The notes under the pieces were generated by a model, which was given only the letters and a program-made list of their open reading frames with translations, did no database searches and was not told the DNA's origin. A stretch of 64,000 nucleotides of DNA from positions 2,421 through 66,420 of the forward strand of contig CAYGWJ010000121.1 of assembly GCA_964353405.1 (NCBI GenBank). The letters run 5' to 3'. This stretch comes from an uncultured Anaerolineae bacterium (lineage in GTDB: Bacteria > Chloroflexota > Anaerolineae > Fen-1058). The position numbers were made by a program, and so were the translations under genes. Each line of letters begins with the position of its first letter. The first letter of the stretch is position 1. This document shows positions 16,849 through 33,796 of the stretch, one piece after another.

Positions 16849-18000
16849 ATGATGGGACGCACTCGACGTCACATCCCAATCAGTCTGCTCGTCGCACTGA
16901 TGGCATTGGCTATCGCCGCACTCGTGTTCAGCACGGCCTCGGCCAGCGGGGCGAACGGCCCGGTCGCTTTGCCGACCATGCCGCCCACGCCGACGGGCGC
17001 GGATAACCAAAAGTGCCTGGCCTGCCACTCCAATCCGGCCCAGCAGATGAAGGCCGCCAACGGAGAGATCATCTCGCTCTACGTTGATCCAGACGCTCTC
17101 AAGAGCTCGGTGCATGGCGCCAAGAATGTGGCCTGTGTCCAGTGCCATAGCAACCTCTCAGGCTATCCGCACCCGGAGTACAAGCCAGCCGACCGGCGGC
17201 AAGTAACACTTGATCTCTACCAAGCCTGTAAACAATGCCACGGCGACAACTATCAAAAGACGTTGGACAGCGTTCACCAGAAAGCACTCGCTTCGGGCAA
17301 CCGCCTGGGCGCGACCTGCGCCGACTGCCACGGCGCGCACGACGTCCGCCCGCCCGATCAGCCGCGCTGGCGCATCGCTCTGACGTGCAGCAAGTGCCAC
17401 GGTGCGATTTTTAACCAGTACAAGGACAGCGTGCATGGCTCGGCACTGCAACAGGACAACCCCGATGTGCCCAGTTGCGTGGACTGTCACGGCGTGCACA
17501 ACATTCCTGACCCGATGACGCAGGCCTTCCGATTAAAGTCACCCACAGAGATGTGCGGCAAGTGCCACACCGATGCCAAACGCATGAGCAAATACAACAT
17601 CTCCACCGCCGTGCTCAATACCTACGTGGCCGACTTTCATGGCACCACCACCACGCTCTTCAAGAAGCAATCGCCTGACCAGGTTACAAACAAGCCCGTC
17701 TGTTTTGACTGCCACGGCGTGCACGAGATTGCCAACACCAAAGACCCCAAGGGCGGCCTGGCCATCAAGACCAACATGCTCAAAGCCTGCCAAAAATGCC
17801 ACCCGGACGCCACGACCGAAACCTTTGCCGCTTCGTGGACGAGCCATTACGAGCCTTCCCCGACCAGGTACCCGGTCGTCTACTATATTGACCTGTTCTA
17901 CAAGATTCTGATTCCGGCCGTGCTGGGCTTTATGATCTTGATGGTGCTCCTGGATGCTTTCTGGCGCATTCGCAATCGTTTTGCGGGGAAGGAGATCTAG
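16849..18000 (+). CDS. Nonahaem c-type cytochrome with a C-terminal membrane anchor
   Basis: Signal peptide. Nine CXXCH motifs (CLACH, CVQCH, CKQCH, CADCH, CSKCH, CVDCH, CGKCH, CFDCH, CQKCH). C-terminal TM helix ILIPAVLGFMILMVLL. Confidence 0.85.
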   Translation: MMGRTRRHIPISLLVALMALAIAALVFSTASASGANGPVALPTMPPTPTGADNQKCLACHSNPAQQMKAANGEIISLYVDPDALKSSVHGAKNVACVQCHSNLSGYPHPEYKPADRRQVTLDLYQACKQCHGDNYQKTLDSVHQKALASGNRLGATCADCHGAHDVRPPDQPRWRIALTCSKCHGAIFNQYKDSVHGSALQQDNPDVPSCVDCHGVHNIPDPMTQAFRLKSPTEMCGKCHTDAKRMSKYNISTAVLNTYVADFHGTTTTLFKKQSPDQVTNKPVCFDCHGVHEIANTKDPKGGLAIKTNMLKACQKCHPDATTETFAASWTSHYEPSPTRYPVVYYIDLFYKILIPAVLGFMILMVLLDAFWRIRNRFAGKEI

Positions 18001-18001
18001 C

Positions 18002-19525
18002 ATGGCCACCGAATCTCGAAAAATCTCGAGCCAAATCGCTCGTGGACAATATATCCGCTTTGATGTGCTGCAGCGAATAGAGCACATTCTTCTGCTGGTA
18101 TCGTTCACACTGTTGGGCATTACGGGCTTGATCCAGAAATTCGCGGCTTGGCCTGTCTCGGATGCGACCATCCAGTTCTTGGGCGGCATCGAAATGACGC
18201 GCCAGATACACCATATCAACGCCGCCATCATGATCATCCTGTCGGCCTACCACTTTGTGGAGGCGGGCTATCGGGTCTTTGTGCTGCGCGCGCGCATGAG
18301 CATGCTGCCCATGCTGAGCGACTTTACCGAGTGGTGGCAAGACACGACTTACAAGCTTGGGCTGACCAAGGCGCCGGCCAAGTTCGGGCGCTACAACTAT
18401 GGCGAAAAGATGGAATACTGGGCCTTGATCTGGGGCACAGTCGTCATGGGCATCACGGGCTTTATGCTGTGGAATCCCATCACCACGGCCAGGTTGGTTC
18501 CAGGCGAGTGGATTCCGGCCGCCAAAGCCGCGCACGGCGCCGAAGCGATCCTGGCGGTGCTCGCCATCATCATCTGGCACTTTTACAATGTGCACATCAA
18601 GATGTTCAACAAAGCCATGCTCACGGGCAAGCTGGATGAACACCAGATGGCGCACGAGCATGGCCGCGAGCTGGAAGCCATCGCTCGCGGCACGGCCGGC
18701 CGCAAGATTGACGCGCTGGTGCTGCGCCGCCGCCAGGTGATCTACTTTCCCCTCGCCACGGTGCTGGGAGTTGTGATGGCTTTCGGCATCTTTAAATTCC
18801 TCACCCTCGAGAATACTGCACCGATCAAGACCGTGCCGCCTGCGGTCAACGTCGCAGTACTAGTCACGGCAACGCCGCAACCCACGCCGACGCGCGCTCC
18901 GACCGCCGTGCCGACGACCGCTCCGACCCAAGCCCCATCGGCTGGCCAGGCACCGGCAACAGGCGGCGGCACCGCATTTGCAGATGTGCAAGCCATCCTC
19001 AAAGCCAAGTGCGGCGCCTGTCATGGCGATGCGGCGACCGCAGGTTTGAGCGTCAATACCTACGCCTCGCTGATGAAGGGAGGCGCGAGCGGAGCCGTCA
19101 TTGTCGCCAAAGATGCTGAAGGCAGCCCGTTGATCAAGAAGGTCACCGGCGCCCACCCCGGTCAATTCTCAGCGGACGAGCTGGCCGCTATCAAAGCCTG
19201 GATTGCAGCGGGCGCAGCCGAAGGTGGAGCACCCGCTGCTGCGCCCGCTCCGGCAGCCGGCGGCAAAGTGACCTTTGTCAAAGACATCCAGCCCATCTTT
19301 ACCGCCAAGTGCGCGGCCTGTCACGGCGTCATGGGCGGATTGACCTTGACCTCGTTTGAAAGTGTGATGCACGGGGGCACGTCCGGCCCGGCCGTTACAC
19401 CCAAGGACCCCGCCAAGAGTTCCATCATCACGAAACAAATCGCAGGCGGCCACCCCGGCCAACTCACAGCGGAGGAAATCGATTTGGTTCGCAAGTGGAT
19501 TGCGGACGGCGCAGCCGAGCAGTAA
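18002..19525 (+). CDS. Dihaem cytochrome b (FdnI/hydrogenase b-type family) fused to two monohaem cytochrome c (PSCyt-like) domains
   Basis: The N-terminus RFDVLQRIEHILLLVSFTLLGITGL followed by His-bearing helices matches b-type cytochrome PF01292. A PT-rich linker follows. Two repeats, FADVQAILKAKCGACHG... and FVKDIQPIFTAKCAACHG..., each end in ...GAHPGQ. The ATG at 18002 abuts the upstream stop. Confidence 0.8.
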   Translation: MATESRKISSQIARGQYIRFDVLQRIEHILLLVSFTLLGITGLIQKFAAWPVSDATIQFLGGIEMTRQIHHINAAIMIILSAYHFVEAGYRVFVLRARMSMLPMLSDFTEWWQDTTYKLGLTKAPAKFGRYNYGEKMEYWALIWGTVVMGITGFMLWNPITTARLVPGEWIPAAKAAHGAEAILAVLAIIIWHFYNVHIKMFNKAMLTGKLDEHQMAHEHGRELEAIARGTAGRKIDALVLRRRQVIYFPLATVLGVVMAFGIFKFLTLENTAPIKTVPPAVNVAVLVTATPQPTPTRAPTAVPTTAPTQAPSAGQAPATGGGTAFADVQAILKAKCGACHGDAATAGLSVNTYASLMKGGASGAVIVAKDAEGSPLIKKVTGAHPGQFSADELAAIKAWIAAGAAEGGAPAAAPAPAAGGKVTFVKDIQPIFTAKCAACHGVMGGLTLTSFESVMHGGTSGPAVTPKDPAKSSIITKQIAGGHPGQLTAEEIDLVRKWIADGAAEQ

Positions 19526-19649
19526 TTCTTTGTGATGGGTTTCAGCCGATCCCAGGCAACGCAGCCCTACACGACGTTGAGGGGCCGCTAGGACAAAGAC
19601 CGGGGGTTTTGAGGTATGGGCAACTGATTGCCCAACAAAGGAGATACGC

Positions 19650-21731
19650 ATGTCAGATGATCCCAAGTCAAACGTTCCACATTCATCCTCTGAGGCCACC
19701 CCAGTCGCCGGCGCGGTGACAAACAAGCCTCGCTCTTTTGGGTCGAGGTTCTGGTCCAGGGTCAGCACCAACAAATGGCTGATGACCGGCACGATCGTCG
19801 TCACGCTGCTGATCCTGTTTGGGCTTTTCTTGGGCGGGATAGCTGTTTTTGACTGGAGTGAATCCACGGCGTTTTGTTCACTCTGTCACGTGATGAAGCC
19901 CGAGTACACGGCGTATCAAAGCTCGCCGCACTCTCGCGTGGAGTGCGGCACCTGCCACGTCGGCCCAGGCCCCACTGCCGCCGTCAAGGCCAAACTGGCC
20001 AACGTCCGATACCTGTGGGTGGCTCCCACCGGCTGGCATGAAAGGCCCATCCCTTCTCCCATCACCAGCCTACGCCCGGTCGAAGTGGTTTGCGAACAAT
20101 GCCACTGGCCGGAAAAGTTTTATCAGGATCGCCTGGCGACCGTCCCGCACTATGCAGAGGATGAGAACAACCGCCTGACGCAAATCAAGTTGCTCCTCAA
20201 GACTGGCGGCGGAACGCAAAACGCTGGCCAGGGACGCGGCATCCACTGGCACATCGCCAATCCCGTTTACTATATCGCGACCGACAAGCAGCGGCAGGAG
20301 ATAGACTGGGTTCAGGCTACTTTTGGCGGCAAGACAACCGAGTACCTCGCGACAGACAGCAAGCTGACGCCGGAGCAAATCGCCAAAGCCGAAAAGCGCA
20401 AGATGGACTGCGTTGACTGCCACAACCGCGCGACGCACGTCTTCCAGCGGCCAGGCGAGGCGCTCGACGCCGCCCTGGCAGCGGGCACCATCCCTGCCAA
20501 CTTGCCCTTCATCAAGCGCGAAGGGACCCAAGTACTGGAAAAGACCTACACGACCGAAGACCAAGCCGCCCAAGCGATCGCCGCTGTGGAAGACTTTTAT
20601 CGGACACAGTACCCCATGGTCTATAACAACCGCAAGGCGGATGTCCAGAAAGCCGTCGCCGGATTGCAGGCCATTTTTGACAGCACCCAGTTCCCCTTTA
20701 TGCGAGTGACCTGGGAGTCGCATCCGACGAACATCGGCCACAAGGATTTTGCAGGCTGCTTCCGCTGCCACGATGGCAAGCACCTGAGCCGAGACAACCA
20801 GGCCATCCGGCTCGAGTGCAATATCTGCCACAGCATCCCGCAGGTCATCACCCCGGACAAGACCACTGCGGCGCTGCCTCTGACCATCGGCATCGAACCG
20901 GATTCGCACAGAAGCACGACCTGGCTTGCGGAGCATCGTACCCGTTTCGATGCCACCTGCGCCAATTGCCACACAACCGGCAATGCCGGGGGCAATGACA
21001 ACAGTAGTTTTTGCAGCAATAGCGCCTGTCATGGCGCGAACTGGAAATTTGTCGGGCTGAACGCGCCCGGGGTGCGCCAACCGGGTCAACCTGCTCAACC
21101 TGCCCAACCGGCTCAGGGCAAGCCGCCTGCGATTCCGCATGATTTGGCCGGGCGCGACAACTGCCTGACGTGCCACAATCCTGATGGCGGCATCAAGCCC
21201 GCGCCCAAGGATCATGCCGGGCGCACGATTGACACATGCCAGGCATGTCACAAACCGACGACGGCTGCCCGTCCAACCGCAGCACCGACGGCGGCCGCCC
21301 CGACCACTGCGCCTTCAGAGGCGCCGACCAAGACAGCGGCCACGGCAACACCCGCCGCGCCGGCTGGAGGCGGCGCGCCGCCTGCCATTCCGCATGATTT
21401 GGCCGGGCGCGACAACTGCCTGACGTGTCACAATCCCGAGGGCGGCCTCAAGCCCGCACCGAAGGATCACGCCGGGCGCGCGAACGACACGTGCCTGGCG
21501 TGCCACAAGCCGTCAACGACCGCGCCTGCAGCTGCACCCACCAAGGCGGTAACTGCCACACCGGCTGCACCGTCAGGCGGCGAAGCGCCGCCGGCCATTC
21601 CGCATGACCTGGCCGGGCGCGACAACTGCCTGACGTGTCACAATCCCGAGGGCGGCCTCAAGCCCGCGCCCAAGGATCACGCCGGGCGTACGAACGATGC
21701 TTGCCAGGCCTGCCACAAGCAAAAGTCGTGA
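19650..21731 (+). CDS. NapC/NirT-family membrane multihaem cytochrome ending in three paired-CXXCH repeats
   Basis: N-terminal TM, then CSLCHVM, CGTCHVG, CEQCHW and CVDCHN, which match the NapC/NirT/NrfH quinol dehydrogenase fold. Further on are CFRCH, CNICH, CANCH and the variant CSNSACH. The protein ends in a three-fold repeat of PAIPHDLAGRDNCLTCHNPEGGLKPAPKDHAGRTNDxCxACHK separated by Ala/Pro/Thr linkers, about 14 haems in total. Confidence 0.8.
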   Translation: MSDDPKSNVPHSSSEATPVAGAVTNKPRSFGSRFWSRVSTNKWLMTGTIVVTLLILFGLFLGGIAVFDWSESTAFCSLCHVMKPEYTAYQSSPHSRVECGTCHVGPGPTAAVKAKLANVRYLWVAPTGWHERPIPSPITSLRPVEVVCEQCHWPEKFYQDRLATVPHYAEDENNRLTQIKLLLKTGGGTQNAGQGRGIHWHIANPVYYIATDKQRQEIDWVQATFGGKTTEYLATDSKLTPEQIAKAEKRKMDCVDCHNRATHVFQRPGEALDAALAAGTIPANLPFIKREGTQVLEKTYTTEDQAAQAIAAVEDFYRTQYPMVYNNRKADVQKAVAGLQAIFDSTQFPFMRVTWESHPTNIGHKDFAGCFRCHDGKHLSRDNQAIRLECNICHSIPQVITPDKTTAALPLTIGIEPDSHRSTTWLAEHRTRFDATCANCHTTGNAGGNDNSSFCSNSACHGANWKFVGLNAPGVRQPGQPAQPAQPAQGKPPAIPHDLAGRDNCLTCHNPDGGIKPAPKDHAGRTIDTCQACHKPTTAARPTAAPTAAAPTTAPSEAPTKTAATATPAAPAGGGAPPAIPHDLAGRDNCLTCHNPEGGLKPAPKDHAGRANDTCLACHKPSTTAPAAAPTKAVTATPAAPSGGEAPPAIPHDLAGRDNCLTCHNPEGGLKPAPKDHAGRTNDACQACHKQKS
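21118..21731 (+). repeat. Three near-identical tandem DNA repeats (~240 bp unit) encoding paired-CXXCH dihaem modules
   Basis: The run ccgcatgatttggccgggcgcgacaactgcctgacgtg(c/t)cacaatcc... occurs three times, starting at ~21136, ~21379 and ~21598. The repeats generate spurious alternate-frame ORFs. Confidence 0.85.
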
Positions 21732-21781: not shown

Positions 21782-23743
21782 ATGAGCACTACCGCCCTGG
21801 GATACATCTACTTTTTCTACGGCCTCGCGTTTTTTGCGATGGGGCTGGCGGTGGTGCTGGAAGCGGGCCGGACCAGCGAGTTGCGGTTCGCGCACTCGAT
21901 GCCGTGGCTGGCGGCCTTTGGCCTGACCCATGGCTTGCACGAGTGGTTTGAAATGTTTGAGGTGATGGGGCAATTGCCCCCTGGCCTGCCGCTGGGAGCA
22001 ATTCACCTCATCCTCCTGGTTGTCTCGTTTGCCTGCCTGGCAGCGTTCGGAATCAGCCTGGGCCGGACCGAGAGCGCGGCGCCGTTGGGCGCCATGTGGC
22101 GAACGCTGGCGCTCATCGGGTTCAGCCTGGGCGGCATGATCGTGTTGCGGCTCTGGCTGCCGCAGTCCGATTGGTGGGGAGCCGCCAGCGTCTGGGCGCG
22201 TTACAGCCTGGGGATCGTCGGCGCCATCGTTACCAGTTGGTCGCTCATTTCTCAAGGGCAAGTCTTTGCCAGGCTGGGCATGGCGCATTTTGGGCGCGAC
22301 CTGATCTGGGCAGCGCTGGCCTTTGCCCTGTATGGCATCGTCGGCCAGATGTTTGTGTCCAAGAGCGCGCTGCCGCCTTCGAACTTTATCAACTCTGATT
22401 TGTTCCTGCGGCTGTTCGGTGCGCCTGTTCAGTTGTTCCGAGGCGCGATCGCGATGGTGCTGGCCGTCACCATCATCCGCGCGCTGCGCGTGTTCGAGAT
22501 CGAACGCACACAGCGACTGCGCGCAGCGGAGCTGACGGCCCAGGAAGCTGAGCGGCGCGTCCAACAGGAAACGGCGCACCTGAACCGCCAATTGCAGGAA
22601 GCGGTCAACGAGCTATCCATCCTGTTTGAAATGTCGCGCATCCTGGCGGCCACGCTGGACTGGCAGGCTGTGCTTCAACAAGCCGTCGTCAAGGTCGTTG
22701 ACCTGCTGCCCGCTCGCGCGGCGATGATCCTGCTGGAAACGGATCCGCCGGGAAGCTGCGCCGCGAGCACAGGCTTTTGCCGCGCAGAGTTGGCTGGCGC
22801 CGCCCAGAGCATAGGTCGGGCCGTCATCACCGCCAACGCCGATAACAACGAATTCGCTGTTCCGCCCGAGATGCGCGTGCTGGCTCCGATGATGGCCGTG
22901 CCTTTGCACCTTTCGGGCAAGCGCGGTCTCATCGGCAGCCTGGTCATTTGCGTGAGCGACGTGCACATCTTTGAACCCAAGCGGTCGCTATTGCTCACGC
23001 TGGGCCGTGAGCTGGCCATCGCCATCGAAAACGCCCGGCTTTACCAGCAAGTCCAAGAGCGCGAGATGGTGCGCGGCGAACTGCTGCGGCGTTCGGTGCA
23101 GGTTCAGGAAGAAGAGCGCAAGCGCATCGCCCGCGAGCTGCACGACGGCATCGGCCAGATCTTTACCGCGCTGGCGCTGGGGCTTTCGGGTGTAGAAGAA
23201 ACCATGCCGCGTGACCCGGCGCTGGCGCGCAAGCAAATCGGCAATCTCAAAGACTTGGCCGTTCGCGCCATCTCTGAGCTGCGTCAACTGGTGGCCGATC
23301 TGCGGCCCGCGCAGTTGGACGACCTGGGCCTGGCGCCCGCGCTCCACTGGCTGACCGACGAGTGGCGCGACCGGCTTCACATGGATGTGCGCGTTCAAAT
23401 TCTAGGCCAGCGCCGTCGCCTGTCGTCGGAAATGGAAACCGTGCTGTTTCGCATCACGCAAGAAGCGTTGACCAACGTCGCCAAGCACGCCAACGCGCAG
23501 CGCACCGCCGTCAAGCTGGCTTTTGGCGATGACCAGGTCGAGCTGGTCATCGAGGATAATGGCATCGGCATGACGCCGGAACAAATGTACCGCCGCCAGG
23601 TTCGCCATCAAGGCTGGGGACTGGCTGGCATCCAGGAACGCGCCGCTCTCGTCGGCGGCACATTCGATATTGACTCGGCGCCGGGGCGAGGCACCCGGTT
23701 GACCGTCCACATCCCACTTGGTGGCGAGGAGGCCGTTGCATGA
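21782..23743 (+). CDS. Polytopic sensor histidine kinase with GAF, HisKA_3 and HATPase_c domains (NarX/LiaS-type)
   Basis: The ATG at 21782 (MSTTALGYIYFFYG) opens a ~7-TM N-terminal sensor domain. A GAF-like region and the HisKA_3 H-box (RIARELHDGIGQ) follow. G-box: DNGIGM...GWGLAGIQERAALVGG. The ORF-track start at 21635 is a repeat artefact. Confidence 0.85.
   Translation: MSTTALGYIYFFYGLAFFAMGLAVVLEAGRTSELRFAHSMPWLAAFGLTHGLHEWFEMFEVMGQLPPGLPLGAIHLILLVVSFACLAAFGISLGRTESAAPLGAMWRTLALIGFSLGGMIVLRLWLPQSDWWGAASVWARYSLGIVGAIVTSWSLISQGQVFARLGMAHFGRDLIWAALAFALYGIVGQMFVSKSALPPSNFINSDLFLRLFGAPVQLFRGAIAMVLAVTIIRALRVFEIERTQRLRAAELTAQEAERRVQQETAHLNRQLQEAVNELSILFEMSRILAATLDWQAVLQQAVVKVVDLLPARAAMILLETDPPGSCAASTGFCRAELAGAAQSIGRAVITANADNNEFAVPPEMRVLAPMMAVPLHLSGKRGLIGSLVICVSDVHIFEPKRSLLLTLGRELAIAIENARLYQQVQEREMVRGELLRRSVQVQEEERKRIARELHDGIGQIFTALALGLSGVEETMPRDPALARKQIGNLKDLAVRAISELRQLVADLRPAQLDDLGLAPALHWLTDEWRDRLHMDVRVQILGQRRRLSSEMETVLFRITQEALTNVAKHANAQRTAVKLAFGDDQVELVIEDNGIGMTPEQMYRRQVRHQGWGLAGIQERAALVGGTFDIDSAPGRGTRLTVHIPLGGEEAVA
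22844..22861. promoter_or_regulatory. 18-bp element AACAACGAATTCGCTGTT, copy 2, inside the kinase coding sequence
   Basis: Exact match to copy 3. It encodes NNEFAV in the GAF region. Confidence 0.35.
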
Positions 23744-24411
23744 CGATCAAGATTGTGCTCGTGGACGATCACGAGATCGTGCGGGCGGGCCTGAGGATGC
23801 TGCTCAGCTCGCACTCGGACATTGAGATCATCGGCGAGGCTGAAAACGGCCAGCAGGCCTTGCAGCTCTGCCAAAAGAACCCGCCCGATGTCGTCATTAT
23901 GGACATCACCATGCCGGGCCTCAGTGGGCTTGAAGTCACGCGCCAGATCAAGCAGCAATGCCCCAACACGGCCGTGCTGGCGCTCACCATCCACGAAGGC
24001 GAGCAATACTTTTTCGAGATGCTCAACGCGGGCGCTTCCGGTTACGTCCCTAAACGCGCCGCGCCCACCGACCTGGTGAATGCCATCCACGCTGTGTATT
24101 CCGGCGAAGTGTACCTGCATCCAAGCGTCGCCAAGGCGCTCGTCAACGATTACATCCAACGTGTTCAGATGGGCTGGGAGCGCGCCAGCTACGACGGACT
24201 GACCGACCGCGAGCAGCAGGTCCTCAAGATGATTGCCGAAGGCATGATGAACAAAGAGATCGCCGAAAAGCTCTCGATCAGCGTGCGGACGGTGGAGCGG
24301 CATCGAGAGAACATTATGGCCAAGCTCAACCTGCACACGCGGGCCGAGCTGGTGCGCTATGCGGTAGACAAGGGACTGATTGACATCAGCAACAAGCCGC
24401 CTTCAGAGTAG
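23740..24411 (+). CDS. NarL/FixJ-family response regulator (REC plus LuxR-type HTH)
   Basis: REC domain sequence IVLVDDHEIVRAGLRMLL...VVIMDITMPGLSG...LALTIHEGEQ. LuxR HTH LTDREQQVLKMIAEGMMNKEIAEKLSISVRTVERHRENIMAKL. The gene overlaps the kinase stop. Confidence 0.9.
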   Translation: MTIKIVLVDDHEIVRAGLRMLLSSHSDIEIIGEAENGQQALQLCQKNPPDVVIMDITMPGLSGLEVTRQIKQQCPNTAVLALTIHEGEQYFFEMLNAGASGYVPKRAAPTDLVNAIHAVYSGEVYLHPSVAKALVNDYIQRVQMGWERASYDGLTDREQQVLKMIAEGMMNKEIAEKLSISVRTVERHRENIMAKLNLHTRAELVRYAVDKGLIDISNKPPSE

Positions 24412-24602: not shown

Positions 24603-24633
24603 AAGTTGGGACGTGTGCCCAATTGACGTGTCA
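24603..24633 (+). promoter_or_regulatory. 31-bp promoter-like element, copy 1, upstream of the second response regulator
   Basis: Sequence AAGTTGGG-N5-TGCCCAATTGACGTGTCA. It contains a TTGAC -35-like hexamer and a TGAC-NN-GTCA palindrome. Confidence 0.45.
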
Positions 24634-24806
24634 GACTCTTGCATGGTAGTCTGGTATCAGAGGAAAGCGGTTCGCCCTTTGATGCTGGACCTCGTCAAAG
24701 GAAACTTTGTAGGGCGGCTTTCCATAGCCGCCGCGCTGGGGGCAGGTATGGACGCGAAGCGTGCCCTACAAGGGGCTCTCCGACAGGGTTCTAGATCGAA
24801 TTTGGT

Positions 24807-25404
24807 ATGATGATCCGAGTCGTTCTGGTGGATGACCAGGAGATTGTGCGCGCCGGGCTGCGCCTGCTGCTCCAATCTCAGACAGACATGGACATCGTAG
24901 GCGAGGCCGGCGATGGCGCCGAGGCGCTCGCACTTTGCCGCCAGGTTTCTCCCCACGTTGTGATCACCACCATCGAACTGCCGGGCCTCAATGGTTTCGA
25001 GCTCGCGCGCAAGCTCAAAGCGCAAAGACCCACAGCACTTTTTCGAGATGATCAGTGCGGGCGCATCCGGCTACCTCCCCAAGCGCACTGCCACCGCTGA
25101 CCTGGTGACCGCCATCCGCACCGTCCATGCGGGTCAAATGTACATACATCCCACGGGTTATCACCAGCGCACCTACGCAAGCCATGAACGCCCCCGCCCC
25201 AACGACCTGGAGCCGCATGAACAGCTCGTCCTCGTCATGATTGCCCAAGGAGCGCAAAACAAGCAAATCGCGCTGCGGCTTGGGGTCAATGTGAGAACCG
25301 TGGCGCGCTATCGAGCGAATATCGAGAACAAGCTCAACCTGCACAGCCGGGCCGACCTGGTGCGCTATGCGGTGGACAAGGGCCTGGTGAGCGCGGCCCC
25401 CTAG
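24807..25404 (+). pseudogene. NarL-family response regulator paralog disrupted by an internal deletion and frameshift
   Basis: ORFs 24807..25100 and 24991..25404 lie in two different frames, and both align to the upstream regulator. The segment equivalent to NTAVLALTIHEGE is missing (about 41 nt; the conserved Thr of the REC domain is lost). The C-terminal LuxR HTH is intact. Confidence 0.55.
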
Positions 25405-25566: not shown

Positions 25567-25597
25567 AAGTTGGGTGGCCTGCCCAATTGACCTGTCA
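25567..25597 (+). promoter_or_regulatory. 31-bp promoter-like element, copy 2, upstream of the octahaem cytochrome operon
   Basis: AAGTTGGG-N5-TGCCCAATTGACCTGTCA. It is 26/31 identical to copy 1, with identical spacing. Confidence 0.45.
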
Positions 25598-25663
25598 TGG
25601 GGCAATGTGATACCTTTGTGTCAGCAGAACCAGGTGAATGGCCTACACACAAAGGAGAAGAAA

Positions 25664-26446
25664 ATGTCCACTACACGCGTTGTCTTTGCCGTCTTTCTCA
25701 TGACCGTTGTGACGGCGTTCGTGGTGAGTGTGTGCGCGGCAGGAGTGGCGTATGCCGCTGGCCCTGAGCCACAGCAACAACCAGACTGCGCCACTTGCCA
25801 CTCGGAAGTCGCCAAGACGTGGGGAGGGGGCAAACATGCTATCAAAGGTATTGCCTGCACGGCATGTCACCAGCCCGGCCCCAATGCCCACCCTGGCAGC
25901 CCGATAGGTGTTGACAAGTCGGCCGCGTTTTGCAGCACTTGCCATTCCGCCGCGGGCACAGAGTGGCAAACGAGCGGTCATGGCAAGGCCAACGTCGCGT
26001 GCACTTCGTGCCACGACATGCACTCAGCCTCGCTCAAGTTCAAGGCGCCGACTGACCTGTGCGCAAGCTGCCACAAGGAGCGCGAAGACCAAAGCAACAT
26101 GCCGATGGACAGCTCGACCAACGCGTGCATCAACTGCCATATGCACAGCACGGCTTCCGGCACAACCGCCACCAACCCCACTCCCTCCAACCACTCTTTC
26201 GTCATGGGAGCGGACGCCTGCCAGCGCTGCCACAAGGATAATGTCCACACAGCGCATCAAATCATTTCTACGGTTTTGCCCCAGCCTGGCGCCGACAAGC
26301 CCGTCCAACAACTTGTGCCCACCGCAACGCTTGCCGCCGCGAGTGCCGCATCGAACGGCGTCTCGGCCTGGCCCAACATCATGGGCGGCGTGATCGGAGG
26401 GCTTTTGCTTGGCTTTATTTCGGCTGTCGTCGTGGTAAGGAGATAG
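25664..26446 (+). CDS. Octahaem c-type cytochrome with a C-terminal TM anchor (NrfB/QrcA-like electron-transfer subunit)
   Basis: AAGGAG Shine-Dalgarno before the ATG at 25664. Signal peptide. CXXCH motifs: CATCH, CTACH, CSTCH, CTSCH, CASCH, CINCH and CQRCH. C-terminal TM helix IMGGVIGGLLLGFISAVVVV. Confidence 0.8.
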   Translation: MSTTRVVFAVFLMTVVTAFVVSVCAAGVAYAAGPEPQQQPDCATCHSEVAKTWGGGKHAIKGIACTACHQPGPNAHPGSPIGVDKSAAFCSTCHSAAGTEWQTSGHGKANVACTSCHDMHSASLKFKAPTDLCASCHKEREDQSNMPMDSSTNACINCHMHSTASGTTATNPTPSNHSFVMGADACQRCHKDNVHTAHQIISTVLPQPGADKPVQQLVPTATLAAASAASNGVSAWPNIMGGVIGGLLLGFISAVVVVRR

Positions 26447-26448
26447 GA

Positions 26449-27240
26449 ATGAGCGATACGAAACTCTCTCGGCGTGATTTTTTGAAATACGCCGGTCTGG
26501 CCGGAGGCGGTTTGCTCGTCGTCGAATTGTTCGGCACGGGCGCAGTCTCGCCGCTCAATCCATCCAACGCCGTCGCGGGCGACAGGGTCAAAGAAGCGCA
26601 AAGCAAGCACAAGTGGGTTATGGTCATTGACCAGAGCAAGTGCATCGGCTGCAACTATTGCACCTATGCCTGCAAAGCGTTCAACGATATCCCCGGCGAT
26701 GCGCAATGGAACACGGTCAGCGTGGAAGGCTCAACCGACAAAGGCCCGGCTTATCTGCCGCGCCCGTGCCAGCATTGCGAAAACGCGCCGTGCGTGGAGG
26801 CCTGCCCGGTCGGAGCGACGTATCACCGCGCCGATGGGCTGGTCGAGATGGATTACGACAAGTGCATCGGCTGCCGCTACTGTCAAGTGGCCTGCCCATA
26901 TAATGCGCGCGTGTTCAACTGGCAAGACCCGGCCAAGCTCGCCAACTCCTATGTGCCCGAGTGGGGCACGCCGGACATTCCGCGCCGTAAGCGCGGCGTG
27001 GTAGAAAAATGCACTTTTTGCGCGCAGCGCATTGACCGTGGGCTGGCACAGGGATTGACCCCCGGCGTGGACCGCGACGCAACGCCCGCGTGTGTGAATG
27101 TCTGCCCGGTGCGTGCGCGGTTGTTCGGCGACTTTTACGATCCCACAAGCCCCGCGAGCCGCGCGCTGGCTCAGCACCGCAGTTTCCGCCTGCGCGAGGA
27201 TCTGGGCACCAATCCGCGCGTGTACTATCTGCCCGCGTGA
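26449..27240 (+). CDS. TAT-exported 4Fe-4S ferredoxin-type subunit (NrfC/PsrB/DmsB family)
   Basis: Twin-arginine signal SRRDFLKYAGLAGGG. Four Cys clusters: CIGCNYCTYAC, CQHCENAPCVEACP, CIGCRYCQVACP and CTFCAQR...CVNVCP. Confidence 0.85.
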   Translation: MSDTKLSRRDFLKYAGLAGGGLLVVELFGTGAVSPLNPSNAVAGDRVKEAQSKHKWVMVIDQSKCIGCNYCTYACKAFNDIPGDAQWNTVSVEGSTDKGPAYLPRPCQHCENAPCVEACPVGATYHRADGLVEMDYDKCIGCRYCQVACPYNARVFNWQDPAKLANSYVPEWGTPDIPRRKRGVVEKCTFCAQRIDRGLAQGLTPGVDRDATPACVNVCPVRARLFGDFYDPTSPASRALAQHRSFRLREDLGTNPRVYYLPA

Positions 27241-27260
27241 GACATTCGACGCCAAAGGAT

Positions 27261-28520
27261 ATGACGATGACAACCTTTGCACAACATTTTCGGTTCAAGC
27301 TCACACCTTTTAGAATATGGATCATCATCCTCGCTCTGATGTGTGCCTTTGGACTGTACGCCGGGATCCTGGTCTTTATCAACGGTCTGTCCATCACGGG
27401 GATGTCTGATCGCGTGCCGTGGGGATTGTGGATCACGATTGACATTTCCTCTATCGGGCTGGGGGCTGGCGCGTTCCTGCTCTCGGCTGCCGTTTACTTG
27501 CTCGGGCTGAAAAAGTACGAACCCATCGCTCGCGTGGCCGTCTTTGTCGGCCTGCTGGGATACACCAGCGCCCTGCTCACGCTATTGCTCGACATTGGCC
27601 GCCCGGATCGCTTTTGGCATGGTCTGGCGTTCTGGAACACACACTCGCTCCTGTGGGAAATCATCATGTGTATCACGCTTTACCTCACAGTGCTCATGGT
27701 CGAGTTTGCGACGATTGTGGCCGAGCATCGCTTCTTTGCGCGCTGGCCCTGGGTCGGCAAGCTGGCTCATCAAGCGCACAAGCTGATGCCGGTGCTGGCT
27801 GTGGTGGGCATGGGTCTCTCGCTCTTGCACCAGTCCTCGCTGGGCGCGGCCTACGGCATCATCAAAGCGAGACCCGTGTGGTACAAGCCTACCATGCCGC
27901 TGATGTTCATCGCACAGGCCATCGCCACCAGCCCGCTGCTTGTCGTGGCGCTGTCCATCATCGTGAGCCGGCTGCGGGGCCGCGAGTTGGTCCGTCAAGA
28001 ACTGCTGTCGGCCGTCGCCCGGTTCAGCGGCTTTGCGCTGCTCGTGTATGCCTACATGCGCTTTTGGGATTTCCTGGCGATGGACTATTCGTATCTGCCG
28101 GTCCGCGCCGAGTCCATGGAACTGCTGACCAGCGGCCCACTGGCCTACAATTTCTGGACCTTTGAAGTGTTCCTGGGCATGGTGATTCCGCTTGTGATCC
28201 TGTTCGACAACAAACTGCGGCACCAAAAAGCGGCTCTGATCGTGGCCGGCTTTCTGGTAGCGTTCGCCCTCATCGTCAACCGCTGGGATACCAACCTGAT
28301 GGGTTTGCTGGTGCCGTTGGCCTATACCACTGCCGTCCTACCTAAAGCTGAGATCAGCTATTCGCCGACTTGGATAGAATGGGCCACGGCGGGCGGCATA
28401 TTGGGCTACTGGTTGATGGCATTCTCGCTGGGCGTCAAGTATTTGCCCATCTTCAAGCAAGAACCGGGGACCAAGGACGAACACGTTGTTGCTCAGGCGC
28501 CCGCACTGGCGCAAGCTTGA
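27261..28520 (+). CDS. NrfD/PsrC-family polytopic membrane quinol-interacting subunit
   Basis: ATG at 27261 (MTMTTFAQHF). About 10 TM helices, including the conserved NrfD-family region ...LLLDIGRPDRFWHGL... Confidence 0.85.
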   Translation: MTMTTFAQHFRFKLTPFRIWIIILALMCAFGLYAGILVFINGLSITGMSDRVPWGLWITIDISSIGLGAGAFLLSAAVYLLGLKKYEPIARVAVFVGLLGYTSALLTLLLDIGRPDRFWHGLAFWNTHSLLWEIIMCITLYLTVLMVEFATIVAEHRFFARWPWVGKLAHQAHKLMPVLAVVGMGLSLLHQSSLGAAYGIIKARPVWYKPTMPLMFIAQAIATSPLLVVALSIIVSRLRGRELVRQELLSAVARFSGFALLVYAYMRFWDFLAMDYSYLPVRAESMELLTSGPLAYNFWTFEVFLGMVIPLVILFDNKLRHQKAALIVAGFLVAFALIVNRWDTNLMGLLVPLAYTTAVLPKAEISYSPTWIEWATAGGILGYWLMAFSLGVKYLPIFKQEPGTKDEHVVAQAPALAQA

Positions 28521-28665
28521 GCAAAGCGCACATCACCCACTCGAAGCAGGCCCGGCTGACACAAACTGGCAGCTAGAAATGGGGCAGTCACCCAATAGAC
28601 CTGACACACAGTTTGGTGTAAACTGCAATCAAAAGGGTTGGCAAGAGTGGAAAGGAGAATGAAAA

Positions 28666-29040
28666 ATGAACGCGCAAACAATCCAAGATATCTTTATAGT
28701 TGCTGGGATGTTCTTTCTGCGCATTGGTCTGCCGCTTCTCGTCGTCATGGGCCTGGGGTATCTGATTCAACGCTGGCTGGAGCCTAAAGCCGTGCATGAG
28801 CAATTCGAGGGAATTGTACGCAGCACACACGAACGAGCGGCGGCTCCGGTGACGCGACAGTACGCCCTATCGGGCGAGGCGGCCAACAAGTATGCAGTCT
28901 GCACGACCAACCTGCAAACGGATATTCCGTGTTGGCTCGCCCGCCAGATCGCCGGTCAGACATTGCCGGAAGGCTGCGCCACTTGTAAAGTGCGCACGCA
29001 GATCAACGCCGACGCGATGGACGTGAAACGCGCCAGCTAA
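28666..29040 (+). CDS. Hypothetical small membrane-anchored protein with 4 Cys
   Basis: N-terminal TM, then Cys residues in CTTN...PCW...GCATCK. It is the last gene of the NrfD-type operon, immediately before the terminator. Confidence 0.4.
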   Translation: MNAQTIQDIFIVAGMFFLRIGLPLLVVMGLGYLIQRWLEPKAVHEQFEGIVRSTHERAAAPVTRQYALSGEAANKYAVCTTNLQTDIPCWLARQIAGQTLPEGCATCKVRTQINADAMDVKRAS

Positions 29041-29061
29041 CAACACTTTTATTGCCCTCCA

Positions 29062-29093
29062 GGCCCGAAGAGTCACTTTGGGCCTTTTTTTTT
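29062..29093 (+). terminator. Rho-independent terminator
   Basis: Stem GGCCCGAAG / CTTTGGGCC (one G-U pair) with loop AGTCA, followed by nine T residues. Confidence 0.75.
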
Positions 29094-29252
29094 GTCAGTC
29101 ACGCAACCGTAACAGACCTGTTACTCTGGAACTATTGATTTGCGATATACTCTGGCGTATACTTGTTAGAATGACGTCATGTCCCGCCTGAATCAGCGGG
29201 CCGGCCCCAGACCCTTGTCGCTTGCCAGACAGTCAAGATACGGAGGCAGCCG

Positions 29253-33795: not shown

Positions 33796-33796
33796 C

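What the first reader, a model, noticed from the sequence alone, without database searches (positions are those of the whole stretch)
25664..29093. NrfBCD/Qrc-like quinol dehydrogenase module without a catalytic reductase partner, plus a small 4-Cys membrane protein
The operon encodes an octahaem cytochrome c (C-terminal TM), a TAT-exported 4x[4Fe-4S] protein, an NrfD-type membrane subunit and a 124-aa membrane protein with 4 Cys. A clean terminator follows. With the upstream cluster, this gives the locus three different quinol-oxidising modules (cytochrome b-c fusion, NapC/NirT-type, NrfCD-type). No terminal reductase catalytic subunit is encoded. This is consistent with electron delivery to periplasmic or extracellular acceptors via the multihaem proteins.
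Basis: partly seen in the sequence, partly recalled or inferred. Interest (0 to 1): 0.5.

Follow-up and report, generated by a model that had tools for sequence, protein, structure and literature searches.

The report
Qrc-like cytochrome–quinone module in Anaerolineae
A gene set in a Chloroflexota (Anaerolineae-type) genome encodes a membrane complex that links the menaquinone pool to multihaem cytochromes outside the cell membrane, with no substrate-converting enzyme subunit; it resembles known complexes, but it comes with a small cysteine-rich membrane protein of an undescribed family.

Summary
The genes are real and lie at the stated coordinates. They encode a signal-peptide, C-tail-anchored multihaem cytochrome c, a TAT-exported 16-Cys FeS protein, a roughly 10-helix NrfD protein and a 124-aa single-pass 4-Cys protein, followed by a strong terminator. 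One correction: the cytochrome has 7 CxxCH motifs, not 8. Its family is octahaem, and this clade lost haem site 2 in a ~46-aa deletion.

The NrfD subunit is closest to QrcD, then HmcC and HybB. It keeps the QrcD/NhcC quinone-site and cytoplasmic proton-channel residues.

The cytochrome–FeS–NrfD triad is conserved in Anaerolineae genomes (85 loci examined; at least 576 relatives found).

The architecture matches Geobacter Cbc4 and Desulfovibrio Nhc, or Qrc without QrcB. Electron-flow direction is unresolved, because the closest characterised relatives are quinone reductases rather than quinol oxidases.

The small protein belongs to an unannotated family (about 235 clusters). Relatives usually have 6 Cys. 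In one relative its helix is fused to NrfD. Its gene lies next to a two-component regulator in 34 of 37 loci. It has its own promoter-like site, with an inverted repeat also found upstream of the cytochrome operon.

Verdict: a new variant of a known kind, of moderate interest.

The parts
25664..26446 (+). Heptahaem cytochrome c with a Sec signal peptide and a C-terminal TM anchor. It belongs to an octahaem family widespread in Anaerolineae.
   Evidence: 7 CxxCH motifs and TM-like segments at 6-24 and 239-257. Pfam Paired_CXXCH_1, Cytochrom_c3_2 and Cytochrome_C7. Weak DmsE/MtrA-like similarity (6r2q_A, 4e-8). The deletion of haem site 2 is seen in the alignment. 58 of 63 orthologous neighbours have 8 CxxCH.
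26449..27240 (+). TAT-exported protein predicted to bind four [4Fe-4S] clusters (NrfC/PsrB/QrcC/DsrO type), with no TM anchor.
   Evidence: SRRDFLK motif and 16 Cys. Pfam Fer4_11. NCBIfam DsrO 216.8 bits (cut-off 200), QrcC 169, TtrB 153, NrfC 143. The closest solved chains are ACIII ActB C-terminal domains (6f0k_B, 1.2e-41) and PsrB (2vpw_B).
27267..28520 (+). NrfD-family integral membrane quinone-binding subunit of the ~10-helix QrcD/HmcC/HybB type, without cofactors. An alternative ATG lies at 27261.
   Evidence: Pfam NrfD 3.6e-32. NCBIfam QrcD 270 bits aligned end to end, HmcC 151, HybB 131, NrfD 35. 10-11 hydrophobic peaks. QrcD residues D70, Y110, D120, S138 and Y150 and ten NhcC residues are matched at a single offset, and all are invariant in the family alignment.
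28666..29040 (+). Small single-pass membrane protein, probably N-out/C-in, with a C-terminal tetra-Cys domain (C79-x9-C89-x14-C104-x2-C107). It belongs to an unannotated family whose usual form has 6 Cys (CW-x4-C-x7-C-x9-PCW-x13-C-x2-C).
   Evidence: No Pfam or NCBIfam hit. 115 homologs, all unnamed. Alignments A1 and A3 have invariant R19, P23, C79, P88, C89, W90, C104 and C107. It lies next to the triad in 44 of 61 loci with enough flank. Its helix is fused to NrfD in P0316. AF2 predicts helix 3-38 at pLDDT 90-97.
29061..29095 (+). Intrinsic terminator closing the unit.
   Evidence: 10-bp stem with 6 G-C pairs, a 5-nt loop and T8.
25570..25615 (+). Operator-like inverted repeat TTGGG-N7-CCCAA, followed by a -35-like TTGACC, a 17-nt spacer and a -10-like ATACCT, upstream of the cytochrome gene.
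   Evidence: The 16-mer CCCAATWGACSTGWCA occurs only three times in the 64 kb even with up to 2 mismatches (expected 0.15). It is conserved upstream of the orthologous gene in L003.
28579..28624 (+). The same operator/promoter-like element (ATGGG-N7-CCCAA, TAGACC, 17 nt, TAAACT) upstream of the small-protein gene.
   Evidence: It is conserved in L003 and L002, while the rest of the spacer diverges in L002.
24606..24652 (+). Third copy of the element (TTGGG-N7-CCCAA, TTGACG), upstream of the second LuxR-type response-regulator gene.
21782..24411 (+). Adjacent two-component system: a membrane HisKA_3-type histidine kinase (start uncertain; ORF from 21635) and a LuxR/GerE-type response regulator (23740-24411).
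   Evidence: Translations. The orthologous genes in L003 carry HisKA_3/HATPase_c and Response_reg/GerE. An HK-RR pair flanks the triad in many loci.
24807..25404 (+). Second LuxR-type response regulator, frameshifted near 25030.
   Evidence: tblastn with the intact L003 ortholog places residues 1-77 in one frame and 87-215 in the next. The distal ORF carries a GerE domain.
14242..21731 (+). Co-located cytochrome genes: a 10-haem protein (14242-16536), a 9-haem protein with a C-terminal TM (16849-18000), a cytochrome b with two c-haems (17954-19525) and a NapC/NirT-type 13-14-haem protein (19650-21731).
   Evidence: The same gene kinds recur beside the triad in other Anaerolineae loci.

Best explanation
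The three genes at 25664-28520 encode a menaquinone/menaquinol:multihaem-cytochrome c oxidoreductase of the NrfCD class. It has no substrate-converting subunit.

Proposed electron path:
- The NrfD subunit binds menaquinone near the outer face of the membrane.
- Electrons pass through the four FeS clusters of the TAT-exported subunit.
- They then reach a membrane-tethered 7-haem (ancestrally 8-haem) cytochrome.
- That cytochrome exchanges electrons with the other extracytoplasmic multihaem cytochromes of the locus.

Proton coupling:
- The quinone protons are exchanged with the cytoplasm through a QrcD-type channel.
- The complex would therefore add to the proton-motive force when electrons flow inward (cytochrome to menaquinone) and draw on it when they flow outward.

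Direction:
- I think the complex is reversible.
- My lean, about 55:45, is outward flow: menaquinol to cytochromes to external acceptors, perhaps as the low-potential, pmf-assisted branch beside the NapC/NirT-type and cytochrome-b-type modules.

The small protein:
- It is most likely a single-helix partner docked on NrfD.
- Its metal-binding Cys domain lies in the cytoplasm.
- It is co-regulated with the operon through a shared operator and is probably linked functionally to the neighbouring two-component system.

Shown: gene content, domain identities, residue conservation, synteny, absence of catalytic neighbours, the fusion, and the shared cis element.

Inferred: complex formation, electron path, proton coupling, direction, metal binding, and the role of the small protein.
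For: NrfD subunit:
- It matches the QrcD model end to end (270 bits). HmcC scores 151, HybB 131 and NrfD proper 35.
- Five of 7 experimentally probed QrcD residues match at one offset: D70, Y110, S138 and Y150 (essential) and D120. Ten of 20 listed NhcC residues also match at one offset. Other offsets give at most 1 and at most 3 matches (PMC13059093; PMC8076601).
- All matched residues are invariant in the 20-sequence family alignment.

FeS subunit:
- Its closest solved relatives are ACIII ActB and PsrB.

Conservation of the triad:
- It is conserved in different genomic surroundings.
- In 85 loci, 76 have the FeS gene directly upstream of NrfD, and 63 have a multihaem gene upstream of that.
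- The best 80 genome hits are all Chloroflexota.
- No catalytic neighbour was found. Unexplained large flanking ORFs are AspRS, GH31, CcmF, flavoproteins and a PD40 propeller protein.
- The window itself holds ccm genes and only cytoplasmic oxidoreductases.

Precedents:
- Geobacter Cbc4 (CbcSTU) has the same three-part build (bioRxiv 10.1101/2025.04.14.648717).
- Desulfovibrio NhcABCD has the same build plus a small membrane subunit (PMC8076601).
- Shewanella SirCD can replace CymA (cited in PMC11434368).

Small protein:
- It is adjacent to the triad in 44 of 61 loci.
- Its helix occurs as an N-terminal fusion to NrfD in P0316/L091, with a topology that fits N-out/C-in.
- Four Cys are invariant.
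- The Cys domain is confidently modelled in a 6-Cys relative (pLDDT 78-91).
- The gene lies next to a regulator gene in 34 of 37 loci.
Against: - No experiment or expression data bear on this locus.
- Direction is undetermined. The closest characterised relatives (Qrc, Hyd-2) act physiologically as quinone reductases. An outward-working complex with a cytoplasmic proton channel would cost energy, while two other candidate quinol oxidases are encoded nearby.
- The QrcD and NhcC residue matches rest on published residue numbers and a constant offset, not on an explicit alignment with those sequences. The C-terminal residues R358 and E413 could not be placed.
- The NrfD profile gave no PDB sequence hit, so structural inferences come from family-level literature.
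- Seventeen of 61 loci lack the small protein, so it is not obligatory.
- The NrfD fusion is a single case on a 2.6-kb contig.
- The small-protein/regulator association is not corrected for shared ancestry and may reflect only two or three ancestral gene orders.
- The promoter motif was defined from the three sites it matches.
Confidence: 0.6

Rival explanations
1. Inward-working, energy-conserving cytochrome c:menaquinone reductase (Qrc/Nhc function). The tethered cytochrome collects electrons from extracytoplasmic donors: H2 or formate via soluble cytochromes, Fe(II), cathodes or syntrophic partners. The complex reduces menaquinone with protons taken from the cytoplasm, which generates proton-motive force. 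The NapC/NirT-type and cytochrome-b-type modules of the same locus then re-oxidise menaquinol.
For: - The best family match of the NrfD subunit is QrcD, and the essential cytoplasmic proton-channel residues are conserved (PMC13059093).
- Duarte et al. argue that the QrcD/HybB/HmcC clade works preferentially as electrogenic quinone reductases (PMC6303296).
- This role would give the locus one input and two output modules rather than three redundant outputs.
- Ardenticatena maritima, a cultured relative at class level, shows cathodic as well as anodic electron transfer (PMC5808234).
Against: - No hydrogenase, formate dehydrogenase or known Fe(II) oxidase gene lies beside the triad in the window or in the 85 loci.
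- Geobacter carries several parallel outward modules, including the similarly built Cbc4, so redundancy is not an argument.
- Qrc itself is reversible.
Confidence: 0.3
2. The NrfCD pair with its cytochrome is the membrane anchor of a conventional terminal reductase or dehydrogenase whose catalytic subunit is encoded elsewhere in the genome. Such a subunit could be an NrfA-, Otr- or MccA-type multihaem enzyme, or a Hyb-type hydrogenase.
For: - NrfCD modules usually serve catalytic partners (PMC8076601).
- Some Anaerolineae group-1f hydrogenases are reported to pair with NrfD-like subunits (bioRxiv 10.1101/2021.08.23.457424).
- Only about 10 kb of flank per locus could be inspected.
Against: - No candidate lies beside the triad in any of the 85 loci, although the surroundings vary widely.
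- What recurs beside it is electron-transfer cytochromes and regulators.
- The 764-aa decahaem protein has only a sub-threshold Cytochrom_C552 hit.
Confidence: 0.08
3. The small Cys-rich protein is not part of the respiratory complex. It is an accessory of the neighbouring two-component system, for example a membrane-anchored redox or metal sensor or a kinase modulator, and it merely shares a regulon with the operon.
For: - The full-length small gene sits on the regulator-facing side of the module in 34 of 37 cases.
- Its presence tracks an adjacent HK/RR pair: 24 of 28 loci versus 2 of 25, Fisher p = 7e-9, uncorrected for phylogeny.
- In L060 it is co-oriented with HK-RR on the opposite strand.
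- It has its own promoter-like element.
- Thirteen of 32 members give weak hits to the NCBIfam two-CW domain (best E = 0.098).
Against: - The fusion of its TM motif to NrfD argues for contact with the complex.
- TM-only short forms directly follow nrfD where the regulator is distant (12 of 27 loci).
- The TM helix is more conserved than NrfD itself (66-70% against about 50% identity).
- The two roles are not mutually exclusive.
Confidence: 0.3

Closest known systems
QrcABCD (quinone reductase complex of Desulfobacterota)
   Same: - It combines a multihaem cytochrome c, a four-cluster FeS protein and a 10-helix cofactor-less NrfD-type subunit, with all redox subunits outside the membrane.
- The NrfD subunit here scores best against the QrcD model.
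- It keeps the residues shown to be essential for QrcD function (PMC13059093).
   Different: - There is no QrcB (the cofactor-less molybdopterin-like subunit) here or in any related locus.
- The cytochrome has 7 or 8 haems and a C-terminal anchor, and is not a QrcA hexahaem.
- Scores are well below the equivalog cut-offs (QrcD 270 against 570; QrcC 169 against 400).
- The host is Chloroflexota, whereas QrcD was reported only from Deltaproteobacteria (PMC6303296).
- An extra small Cys-rich protein is present.
NhcABCD / HmcABCDEF (Desulfovibrio multihaem-cytochrome transmembrane complexes)
   Same: - Nhc has the same four-part build: multihaem cytochrome, four-cluster FeS protein, 10-helix NrfD-like subunit and a small membrane protein (PMC8076601).
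- Ten listed NhcC functional residues are conserved at one offset.
   Different: - The cytochrome is unrelated to the nine-haem NhcA; there is no hit to NF045784.
- HmcB and HmcC scores are far below their cut-offs.
- The small protein here shows no detectable similarity to any named family, and its Cys domain has no counterpart described for NhcD/HmcD.
- There are no HmcE/F-type cytochrome b or CCG subunits.
Geobacter sulfurreducens Cbc4 (CbcSTU)
   Same: - It has a membrane-anchored multihaem cytochrome, a four-[4Fe-4S] protein and an integral membrane subunit, without a catalytic subunit.
- It is encoded in an organism with ImcH- and CbcL-type modules and is proposed to be a quinol:cytochrome c oxidoreductase for extracellular electron transfer (bioRxiv 10.1101/2025.04.14.648717).
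   Different: - CbcS is a NapC/NirT-type tetrahaem with an N-terminal anchor. Here the cytochrome has 7 or 8 haems, no Cytochrom_NNT hit and a C-terminal anchor.
- Cbc4's own function is unproven.
NrfBCD of the NrfABCD nitrite reductase system
   Same: It has a periplasmic multihaem cytochrome, NrfC-type FeS protein and NrfD membrane subunit that pass electrons between quinol and a periplasmic haem protein.
   Different: - NrfD proper has 8 helices and scores only 35 bits here (cut-off 347.6).
- NrfC scores 143 against 377.6, and the NrfB models score 17.6 against 184.
- No NrfA is present.
Alternative complex III (ActABCDEF)
   Same: - The FeS subunit's closest solved relatives are ActB C-terminal domains.
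- ACIII also has a 10-helix NrfD-type subunit and a membrane-tethered multihaem cytochrome.
   Different: - There is no molybdopterin-like ActB1 domain.
- Only one NrfD-like subunit is present, instead of ActC plus ActF.
- There is no ActD or ActE, and no linked oxidase.
Shewanella SirCD (NrfCD-type pair that can replace CymA)
   Same: It shows that an FeS plus NrfD pair alone can feed periplasmic cytochromes from the quinol pool (cited in PMC11434368).
   Different: SirCD normally serves the octahaem sulfite reductase SirA. Here no catalytic cytochrome was identified.

Membership tests
QrcABCD | QrcD-type 10-helix NrfD subunit with the conserved quinone site and cytoplasmic proton channel | tested here: inconclusive
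   The best NCBIfam hit is QrcD, aligned over 10-400 of 418 residues, but at 270 bits against a cut-off of 570. Five of 7 probed residues are conserved at one offset. There are 10-11 hydrophobic peaks. The subunit is QrcD-like but not an equivalog.
QrcABCD | QrcB, a cofactor-less molybdopterin-like subunit | tested here: not met
   No such gene is present in the window or beside the triad in the 85 related loci.
QrcABCD | QrcC FeS subunit and QrcA hexahaem cytochrome | tested here: not met
   QrcC scores 169 bits against a cut-off of 400. The cytochrome has 7 or 8 haems and only generic multihaem domain hits.
NrfABCD | NrfB pentahaem, NrfC and NrfD equivalogs together with the NrfA nitrite reductase | tested here: not met
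   NrfD scores 35.1 against 347.6, NrfC 143.2 against 377.6 and the NrfB model 17.6 against 184. No NrfA-type gene is present; Cytochrom_C552 hits are only sub-threshold.
NhcABCD / Hmc | Nine-haem (NhcA) or sixteen-haem (HmcA) cytochrome | tested here: not met
   The module's cytochrome gives no hit to the 9HemeCytC or HmcA models.
NhcABCD / Hmc | HmcB/HmcC-type FeS and NrfD subunits | tested here: not met
   HmcB scores 79.8 against 420 and HmcC 150.9 against 550. NhcC functional residues are nevertheless conserved.
NhcABCD / Hmc | Small membrane subunit (NhcD/HmcD) | not testable with these tools
   A small membrane protein is present, but no NhcD or HmcD sequence or model was available. No named family is matched by 32 members, apart from weak two-CW hits.
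Geobacter Cbc4 (CbcSTU) | Three-part build without a catalytic subunit: anchored multihaem cytochrome, four-[4Fe-4S] protein and integral membrane subunit | tested here: met
   The description of Cbc4 is from bioRxiv 10.1101/2025.04.14.648717.
Geobacter Cbc4 (CbcSTU) | CbcS is a NapC/NirT-family tetrahaem with an N-terminal anchor | tested here: not met
   The cytochrome has 7 CxxCH motifs, no Cytochrom_NNT hit and a C-terminal anchor.
Geobacter Cbc4 (CbcSTU) | Orthology of the FeS and membrane subunits to CbcT and CbcU | not testable with these tools
Alternative complex III | ActB fusion (molybdopterin-like plus FeS), two NrfD-like subunits (ActC, ActF), and ActA/ActE cytochromes | tested here: not met
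   Only the FeS domain is present; it aligns to residues 795-1022 of the 1039-residue chain 6f0k_B. There is one NrfD gene and no monohaem ActE in the unit.
DsrMKJOP | DsrO FeS subunit | tested here: met
   216.8 bits against a cut-off of 200. This is a probable source of misannotation.
DsrMKJOP | DsrP, DsrM, DsrK and DsrJ subunits | tested here: not met
   DsrP scores 64.9 against 350. There is no DsrMKJ-type gene in the unit. The CCG protein at 33725-35059 belongs to a GlcDEF-like set.
two-CW domain proteins (NCBIfam NF045718) | Match to the two-CW domain model | tested here: inconclusive
   The window protein gives no hit. Thirteen of 32 family members hit weakly (best E = 0.098; cut-off 35 bits not reached). 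The 6-Cys relatives do carry two CW dipeptides.

The most novel reading that the evidence does not exclude
The small Cys-rich protein is a sensor built into a respiratory complex. Its conserved Arg/Pro-containing helix docks on the NrfD subunit. Its cytoplasmic tetra- or hexa-Cys metal centre would report the redox state of the quinone/cytochrome module, or metal availability, to the adjacent HisKA_3 kinase and LuxR-type regulator. That regulator would in turn control the operon, the small gene and a second regulator through the shared TTGGG-N7-CCCAA operator. This would be a feedback loop between a respiratory complex and its own two-component system, and a new accessory subunit class for NrfD-family complexes, widespread in Anaerolineae.
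Probability: 0.2. Interest if true: 0.7.

Novelty: new variant of a known kind. Interest (0 to 1): 0.45.

Why it matters
- Anaerolineae are abundant in sediments, digesters and wastewater, and are rich in multihaem cytochromes. How their quinone pool connects to those cytochromes has not been described in the literature I could search.
- This module is conserved across the class: at least 576 genome hits, and the best 80 are all Chloroflexota.
- It extends the QrcD-like, probably electrogenic, branch of the NrfD family beyond Desulfobacterota, in a form stripped of QrcB.
- If it works outward, it is a candidate low-potential gate for extracellular electron transfer in monoderm-type bacteria.
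- If it works inward, it is an energy-conserving entry point for external electrons.
- The accompanying small protein is an unannotated family with a conserved helix, a Cys-rich domain and a natural fusion to NrfD. It offers a concrete, testable case of an accessory or sensor subunit for this widespread class of complexes.
- Practical point: the FeS subunit passes the NCBIfam DsrO cut-off, so annotation could wrongly suggest sulfate reduction.

Tried and rejected
- **PDB sequence search for the NrfD subunit.** Neither the single sequence nor a 20-sequence profile gave any hit, so there is no direct structural anchoring.
- **AlphaFold2 of the window's 4-Cys protein with a shallow alignment.** Only the TM helix was confident, and the C-terminal domain scored pLDDT about 50.
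- **Assigning the Cys domain to the NCBIfam two-CW domain.** Only weak hits were found, so this remains a lead.
- **P0283.** This 2446-aa DUF11 protein appeared in the representative search but is a spurious, probably compositional, match.
- **Rfam on 24300-29400.** Nothing was found.
- **Literature.** I searched for a description of this module in Chloroflexi or Anaerolineae and for 'two-CW domain'. I found only general remarks on Anaerolineae multihaem cytochromes.
- **Large flanking ORFs as hidden catalytic subunits.** They turned out to be AspRS, GH31, CcmF, flavoproteins and a PD40 propeller protein.
- **The longer ORFs as real genes.** I rejected 25556-26446 and 27090-28520. The first has no ribosome-binding site and adds a non-signal extension. 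The second overlaps the FeS gene.
- **The σ70-like hit at 28638-28667.** It overlaps the start codon, so I rejected it in favour of the conserved element at 28579-28624.

Full report
**Observation**

ORF listing, translation and motif counts confirm four co-directional genes followed by a terminator.

- *Cytochrome (25664-26446, 260 aa).* It starts at an ATG preceded by AAGGAG. It has a signal peptide with a VAYA|AG cleavage-like site and a C-terminal hydrophobic helix ending in RR. It has seven CxxCH motifs and no variant haem motif, so it is a heptahaem rather than the reported octahaem.
- *FeS protein (26449-27240, 263 aa).* It carries SRRDFLK and 16 Cys in four ferredoxin-type groups.
- *NrfD gene.* It most likely starts at ATG 27267, giving 417 aa, identical to database protein P0001. 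The residue numbers below come from the translation of 27264-28520 used.
- *Small protein (28666-29040, 124 aa).* It has one N-terminal TM helix and Cys79, 89, 104 and 107.
- *Terminator.* A 10-bp stem with 6 G-C pairs and T8 lies at 29061-29095.
- *Upstream cluster.* It contains a 10-haem protein, a 9-haem protein with a C-terminal TM, a cytochrome b fused to two c-type haem domains, and a NapC/NirT-type protein with 13-14 haem motifs.

**Family assignment of the three core proteins**

The membrane subunit matches Pfam NrfD at E = 3.6e-32. Among NCBIfam models its scores are:

| Model | Bits | Cut-off |
|---|---|---|
| QrcD (aligned end to end) | 270 | 570 |
| HmcC | 151 | 550 |
| HybB | 131 | 450 |
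| DsrP | 65 | 350 |
| NrfD proper | 35 | 347.6 |
| TtrC | 16 | 314 |

It shows 10-11 hydrophobic peaks. This fits the 10-helix branch of the family described by Duarte et al. (PMC6303296) and by Calisto and Pereira (PMC8076601).

The FeS protein scores DsrO 217 (above that model's cut-off of 200), QrcC 169, TtrB 153, ArrB 152 and NrfC 143. Its closest solved relatives are the C-terminal FeS domains of ACIII ActB (6f0k_B, 1.2e-41) and PsrB.

The cytochrome has only generic multihaem domain hits. It has weak similarity to DmsE/MtrA-type decahaems and to chain 6r2q_A, which I take to be MtrA despite the odd label.

None of the three proteins reaches the equivalog cut-offs for Qrc, Nrf, Hmc or Ttr. 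The DsrO pass is contradicted by the absence of DsrMKJP.

**Functional residues**

Manteigas et al. (PMC13059093) showed the following for QrcD:

- D70, Y110, S138 and Y150 are essential for electron transfer to menaquinone.
- D120, R358 and E413 contribute.

Calisto and Pereira list quinone-site and channel residues for NhcC.

I slid these lists along the window protein. Five of 7 QrcD residues match at the single offset -10: D60, Y100, D110, S128 and Y140. Ten of 20 NhcC residues match at offset -9. No other offset gives more than 1 and 3 matches respectively. All matched residues are invariant in a 20-sequence alignment of relatives that are only about 50% identical.

This is indirect, because it uses published numbering rather than an explicit alignment. 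It still argues strongly that the outer-face quinone site and the cytoplasm-facing proton path of QrcD-type subunits are present. The C-terminal residues could not be placed.

**Conservation and the 'no catalytic partner' test**

- The NrfD protein has thousands of homologs.
- Named hits, and the best 80 genome loci from a scan of one genome per species, are all Chloroflexota. They are mostly Anaerolineales, Ardenticatenaceae, Promineifilaceae and relatives. At least 576 relatives were confirmed.
- The window's own clade (77-93% identity) is seen only in metagenomes.
- I annotated 85 loci by homology to the window proteins and by haem-motif counting. In 76 the FeS gene lies directly upstream of nrfD. 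In 63 a multihaem gene precedes that, and 58 of these have 8 CxxCH.
- The family is therefore octahaem. The window and its relatives at 73% identity or more have a ~46-residue deletion that removes haem site 2.
- The triad occurs in quite different surroundings.
- Large unexplained neighbours are AspRS, a GH31 glycosidase, CcmF, flavoproteins, a PD40 propeller protein, or have no Pfam hit.
- In the window the flanks are cytochrome c maturation genes, a dihaem cytochrome, a GlcDEF-like set and a cytoplasmic xanthine-dehydrogenase-type enzyme.
- What does recur beside the triad is further electron-transfer cytochromes: 8-, 10- and 11-haem proteins, 9-haem plus cytochrome b pairs, and NapC/NirT-type proteins. 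HisKA_3/LuxR two-component systems also recur.

**The small protein**

It has no Pfam or NCBIfam match.

*Homologs.*
- A word-indexed search found 115 homologs, all unnamed.
- An exhaustive profile search of 1.84 billion representatives found only 235 clusters at E ≤ 0.001. Nearly all are 100-180 aa.

*Sequence features (alignments).*
- A strongly conserved N-terminal helix has invariant R19 and P23 and a basic juxtamembrane stretch.
- A linker follows, and then a Cys-rich domain.
- The usual form of that domain is CW-x4-C-x7-C-x9-PCW-x13-C-x2-C, with six Cys.
- The window clade has lost the first two. The four it keeps are exactly the four that are invariant family-wide, which suggests one tetra-Cys metal site.
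- A ~70-aa subgroup keeps only the helix.

*Topology.*
- Charge distribution (no positive residue before the helix, several after it) predicts N-out/C-in.
- This places the Cys domain in the cytoplasm.

*Structure prediction.*
- AlphaFold2 models the helix confidently.
- With a deeper alignment it also models the Cys domain of a 6-Cys relative at pLDDT 78-91.
- No solved structure resembles the domain.
- Thirteen of 32 members hit the NCBIfam two-CW domain weakly. This is a lead, not an assignment.

*Link to the module.*
- Among 61 loci with at least 900 nt of flank on both sides, 44 have a family member on the same strand directly beside the triad: 21 upstream of the cytochrome gene, 21 downstream of nrfD and 2 on both sides.
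- One further locus has it on the opposite strand, and 17 have none.
- One representative, P0316, is a 524-aa NrfD protein. Its N-terminus carries two tandem copies of the small protein's helix motif. It lies between an FeS gene and a free-standing 6-Cys small protein.
- The topology of this fusion fits N-out/C-in. It is the kind of fusion that suggests physical association, but it is a single case on a short contig.

*Link to regulation.*
- The full-length gene sits next to a response-regulator or kinase gene in 34 of 37 cases.
- Its presence tracks an adjacent two-component system: 24 of 28 loci against 2 of 25, Fisher p = 7e-9.
- This is not corrected for shared ancestry, and only a few ancestral gene orders may underlie it.
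- Where the regulator is distant, a helix-only form often follows nrfD (12 of 27 loci).

**Transcription signals**

- The 145-nt spacer before the small gene holds a block that is conserved in relatives at 88% and 77% identity, while the rest of the spacer diverges.
- The same block stands upstream of the cytochrome gene and of the second response-regulator gene.
- It consists of an inverted repeat TTGGG-N7-CCCAA abutting a -35-like TTGAC(C/G) or TAGACC, a 17-nt spacer and a -10-like hexamer.
- The 16-mer CCCAATWGACSTGWCA occurs at 24618, 25582 and 28591. It occurs nowhere else in the 64 kb even with two mismatches (expected 0.15).
- It is found at the two equivalent places in L003.
- The pattern was derived from these sites, so the count is partly circular. 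The conservation in other genomes is the independent support.
- I read this as one regulon with three promoters under a dimeric regulator, plausibly the neighbouring LuxR-type protein.
- No terminator separates nrfD from the small gene, so read-through is also possible.
- Rfam finds nothing in the region.

**Mechanism and direction**

The best-supported reading is a menaquinone:cytochrome c oxidoreductase of the NrfCD class without a catalytic subunit.

- The same build is known from Geobacter Cbc4 (bioRxiv 10.1101/2025.04.14.648717) and from Desulfovibrio Nhc (PMC8076601).
- With an extra QrcB subunit it is Qrc.
- Shewanella SirCD shows that such pairs can feed periplasmic cytochromes directly (cited in PMC11434368).

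The sequence does not decide this.

- *For inward flow.* The nearest characterised relatives (Qrc, Hyd-2) are quinone reductases that take protons from the cytoplasm and thereby conserve energy (PMC6303296). The channel residues are conserved here.
- *For outward flow.* The genomic company parallels Geobacter's outward quinol oxidases: split CbcL-like pairs, ImcH-like NapC/NirT proteins and large cytochromes. No donor-oxidising enzyme is linked. A pmf-assisted outward branch for low-potential acceptors would make sense.

I lean slightly to outward flow, regard the complex as reversible, and give the inward model about 0.3.

**Comparison and novelty**

- The unit is not a member of Qrc (no QrcB; scores below cut-off).
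- It is not Nrf, Hmc/Nhc (different cytochrome) or ACIII.
- It does not match Cbc4 at the level of the cytochrome.
- It works like these complexes and belongs to the same broad class.

New elements are:

- A QrcD-like branch in Chloroflexota; QrcD was reported only from Deltaproteobacteria (PMC6303296).
- The stripped three-subunit form with a C-tail-anchored octahaem cytochrome, conserved across Anaerolineae.
- The unannotated small Cys-rich partner, with its regulator linkage and shared operator.

I found no description of any of this in the searchable literature. That library is incomplete.

Verdict: a new variant of a known kind, of moderate interest (0.45).

Noticed in passing
window 24807-25404: The second LuxR-type response regulator is split by a frameshift near 25030. 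Residues 1-77 of the intact L003 ortholog align in one frame and residues 87-215 in the next. This is either a pseudogene or an assembly error.
   Followed up: partly
window 13864-13879 and 13959-13974: Two near-perfect palindromes, TGGGGGAACACCCCCA and TGGGGGCATTCCCCCA (TGGGGG-N4-CCCCCA), lie in the intergenic region upstream of the 10-haem cytochrome gene. They may form a second operator type, distinct from the TTGGG-N7-CCCAA element of the NrfCD unit.
   Followed up: no
window 16849-19525; loci such as L015, L016, L022, L031, L034: A 9-haem cytochrome with a C-terminal TM, followed by a HydC/FdnI-type cytochrome b, looks like a split version of Geobacter CbcL. Here the cytochrome b also has two C-terminal c-type haem domains. 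In many Anaerolineae loci this pair is duplicated in tandem directly after the NrfCD triad.
   Followed up: partly
window 19650-21731: The C-terminal half of the NapC/NirT-type protein contains three tandem copies of a dihaem unit, roughly PPAIPHDLAGRDNCLTCHNPxGGxKPAPKDHAGRxxDxCxACHK, separated by Ala/Pro/Thr-rich linkers.
   Followed up: no
window 26449-27240: The FeS protein passes the NCBIfam DsrO equivalog cut-off (216.8 against 200), although no other Dsr gene is present. Automated annotation could wrongly imply dissimilatory sulfate or sulfite reduction.
   Followed up: yes
window 4251-13805, minus strand: A cytochrome c maturation cluster (a DsbD_TM/CcdA-type protein, probable Ccm ABC transporter genes identified from translations only, and CcmF) and a 647-aa dihaem cytochrome c lie directly upstream of the multihaem cluster.
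   Followed up: partly
L091:591-2165 (protein P0316) and L091:2220-2570: This is an NrfD protein with two tandem N-terminal copies of the small protein's TM motif. A free-standing 6-Cys small protein follows it. The FeS protein upstream has a C-terminal TM helix, unlike the window's.
   Followed up: partly
L032:~7724, L039:6237-6404, L027, L056, L075 (minus strand, just upstream of the cytochrome gene): Short helix-only paralogs of the small protein (about 41-55 aa) are encoded divergently from the triad in several loci that also have a full-length copy downstream.
   Followed up: no
window 54000-58000: The region has lower G+C (0.52 against about 0.60) and ORFs with low third-position GC (55111-57512). 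The first ORF looks like a HicB-type antitoxin, judged from its N-terminus and from memory. It may be horizontally acquired.
   Followed up: no
window 31265-40004: Downstream lie a GlcDEF-like FAD/CCG oxidase set and a xanthine-dehydrogenase-family molybdenum hydroxylase (FAD/2Fe-2S subunit and MoCo subunit). Both are cytoplasmic and appear unrelated to the NrfCD unit. The same genes follow the unit in L003.
   Followed up: partly
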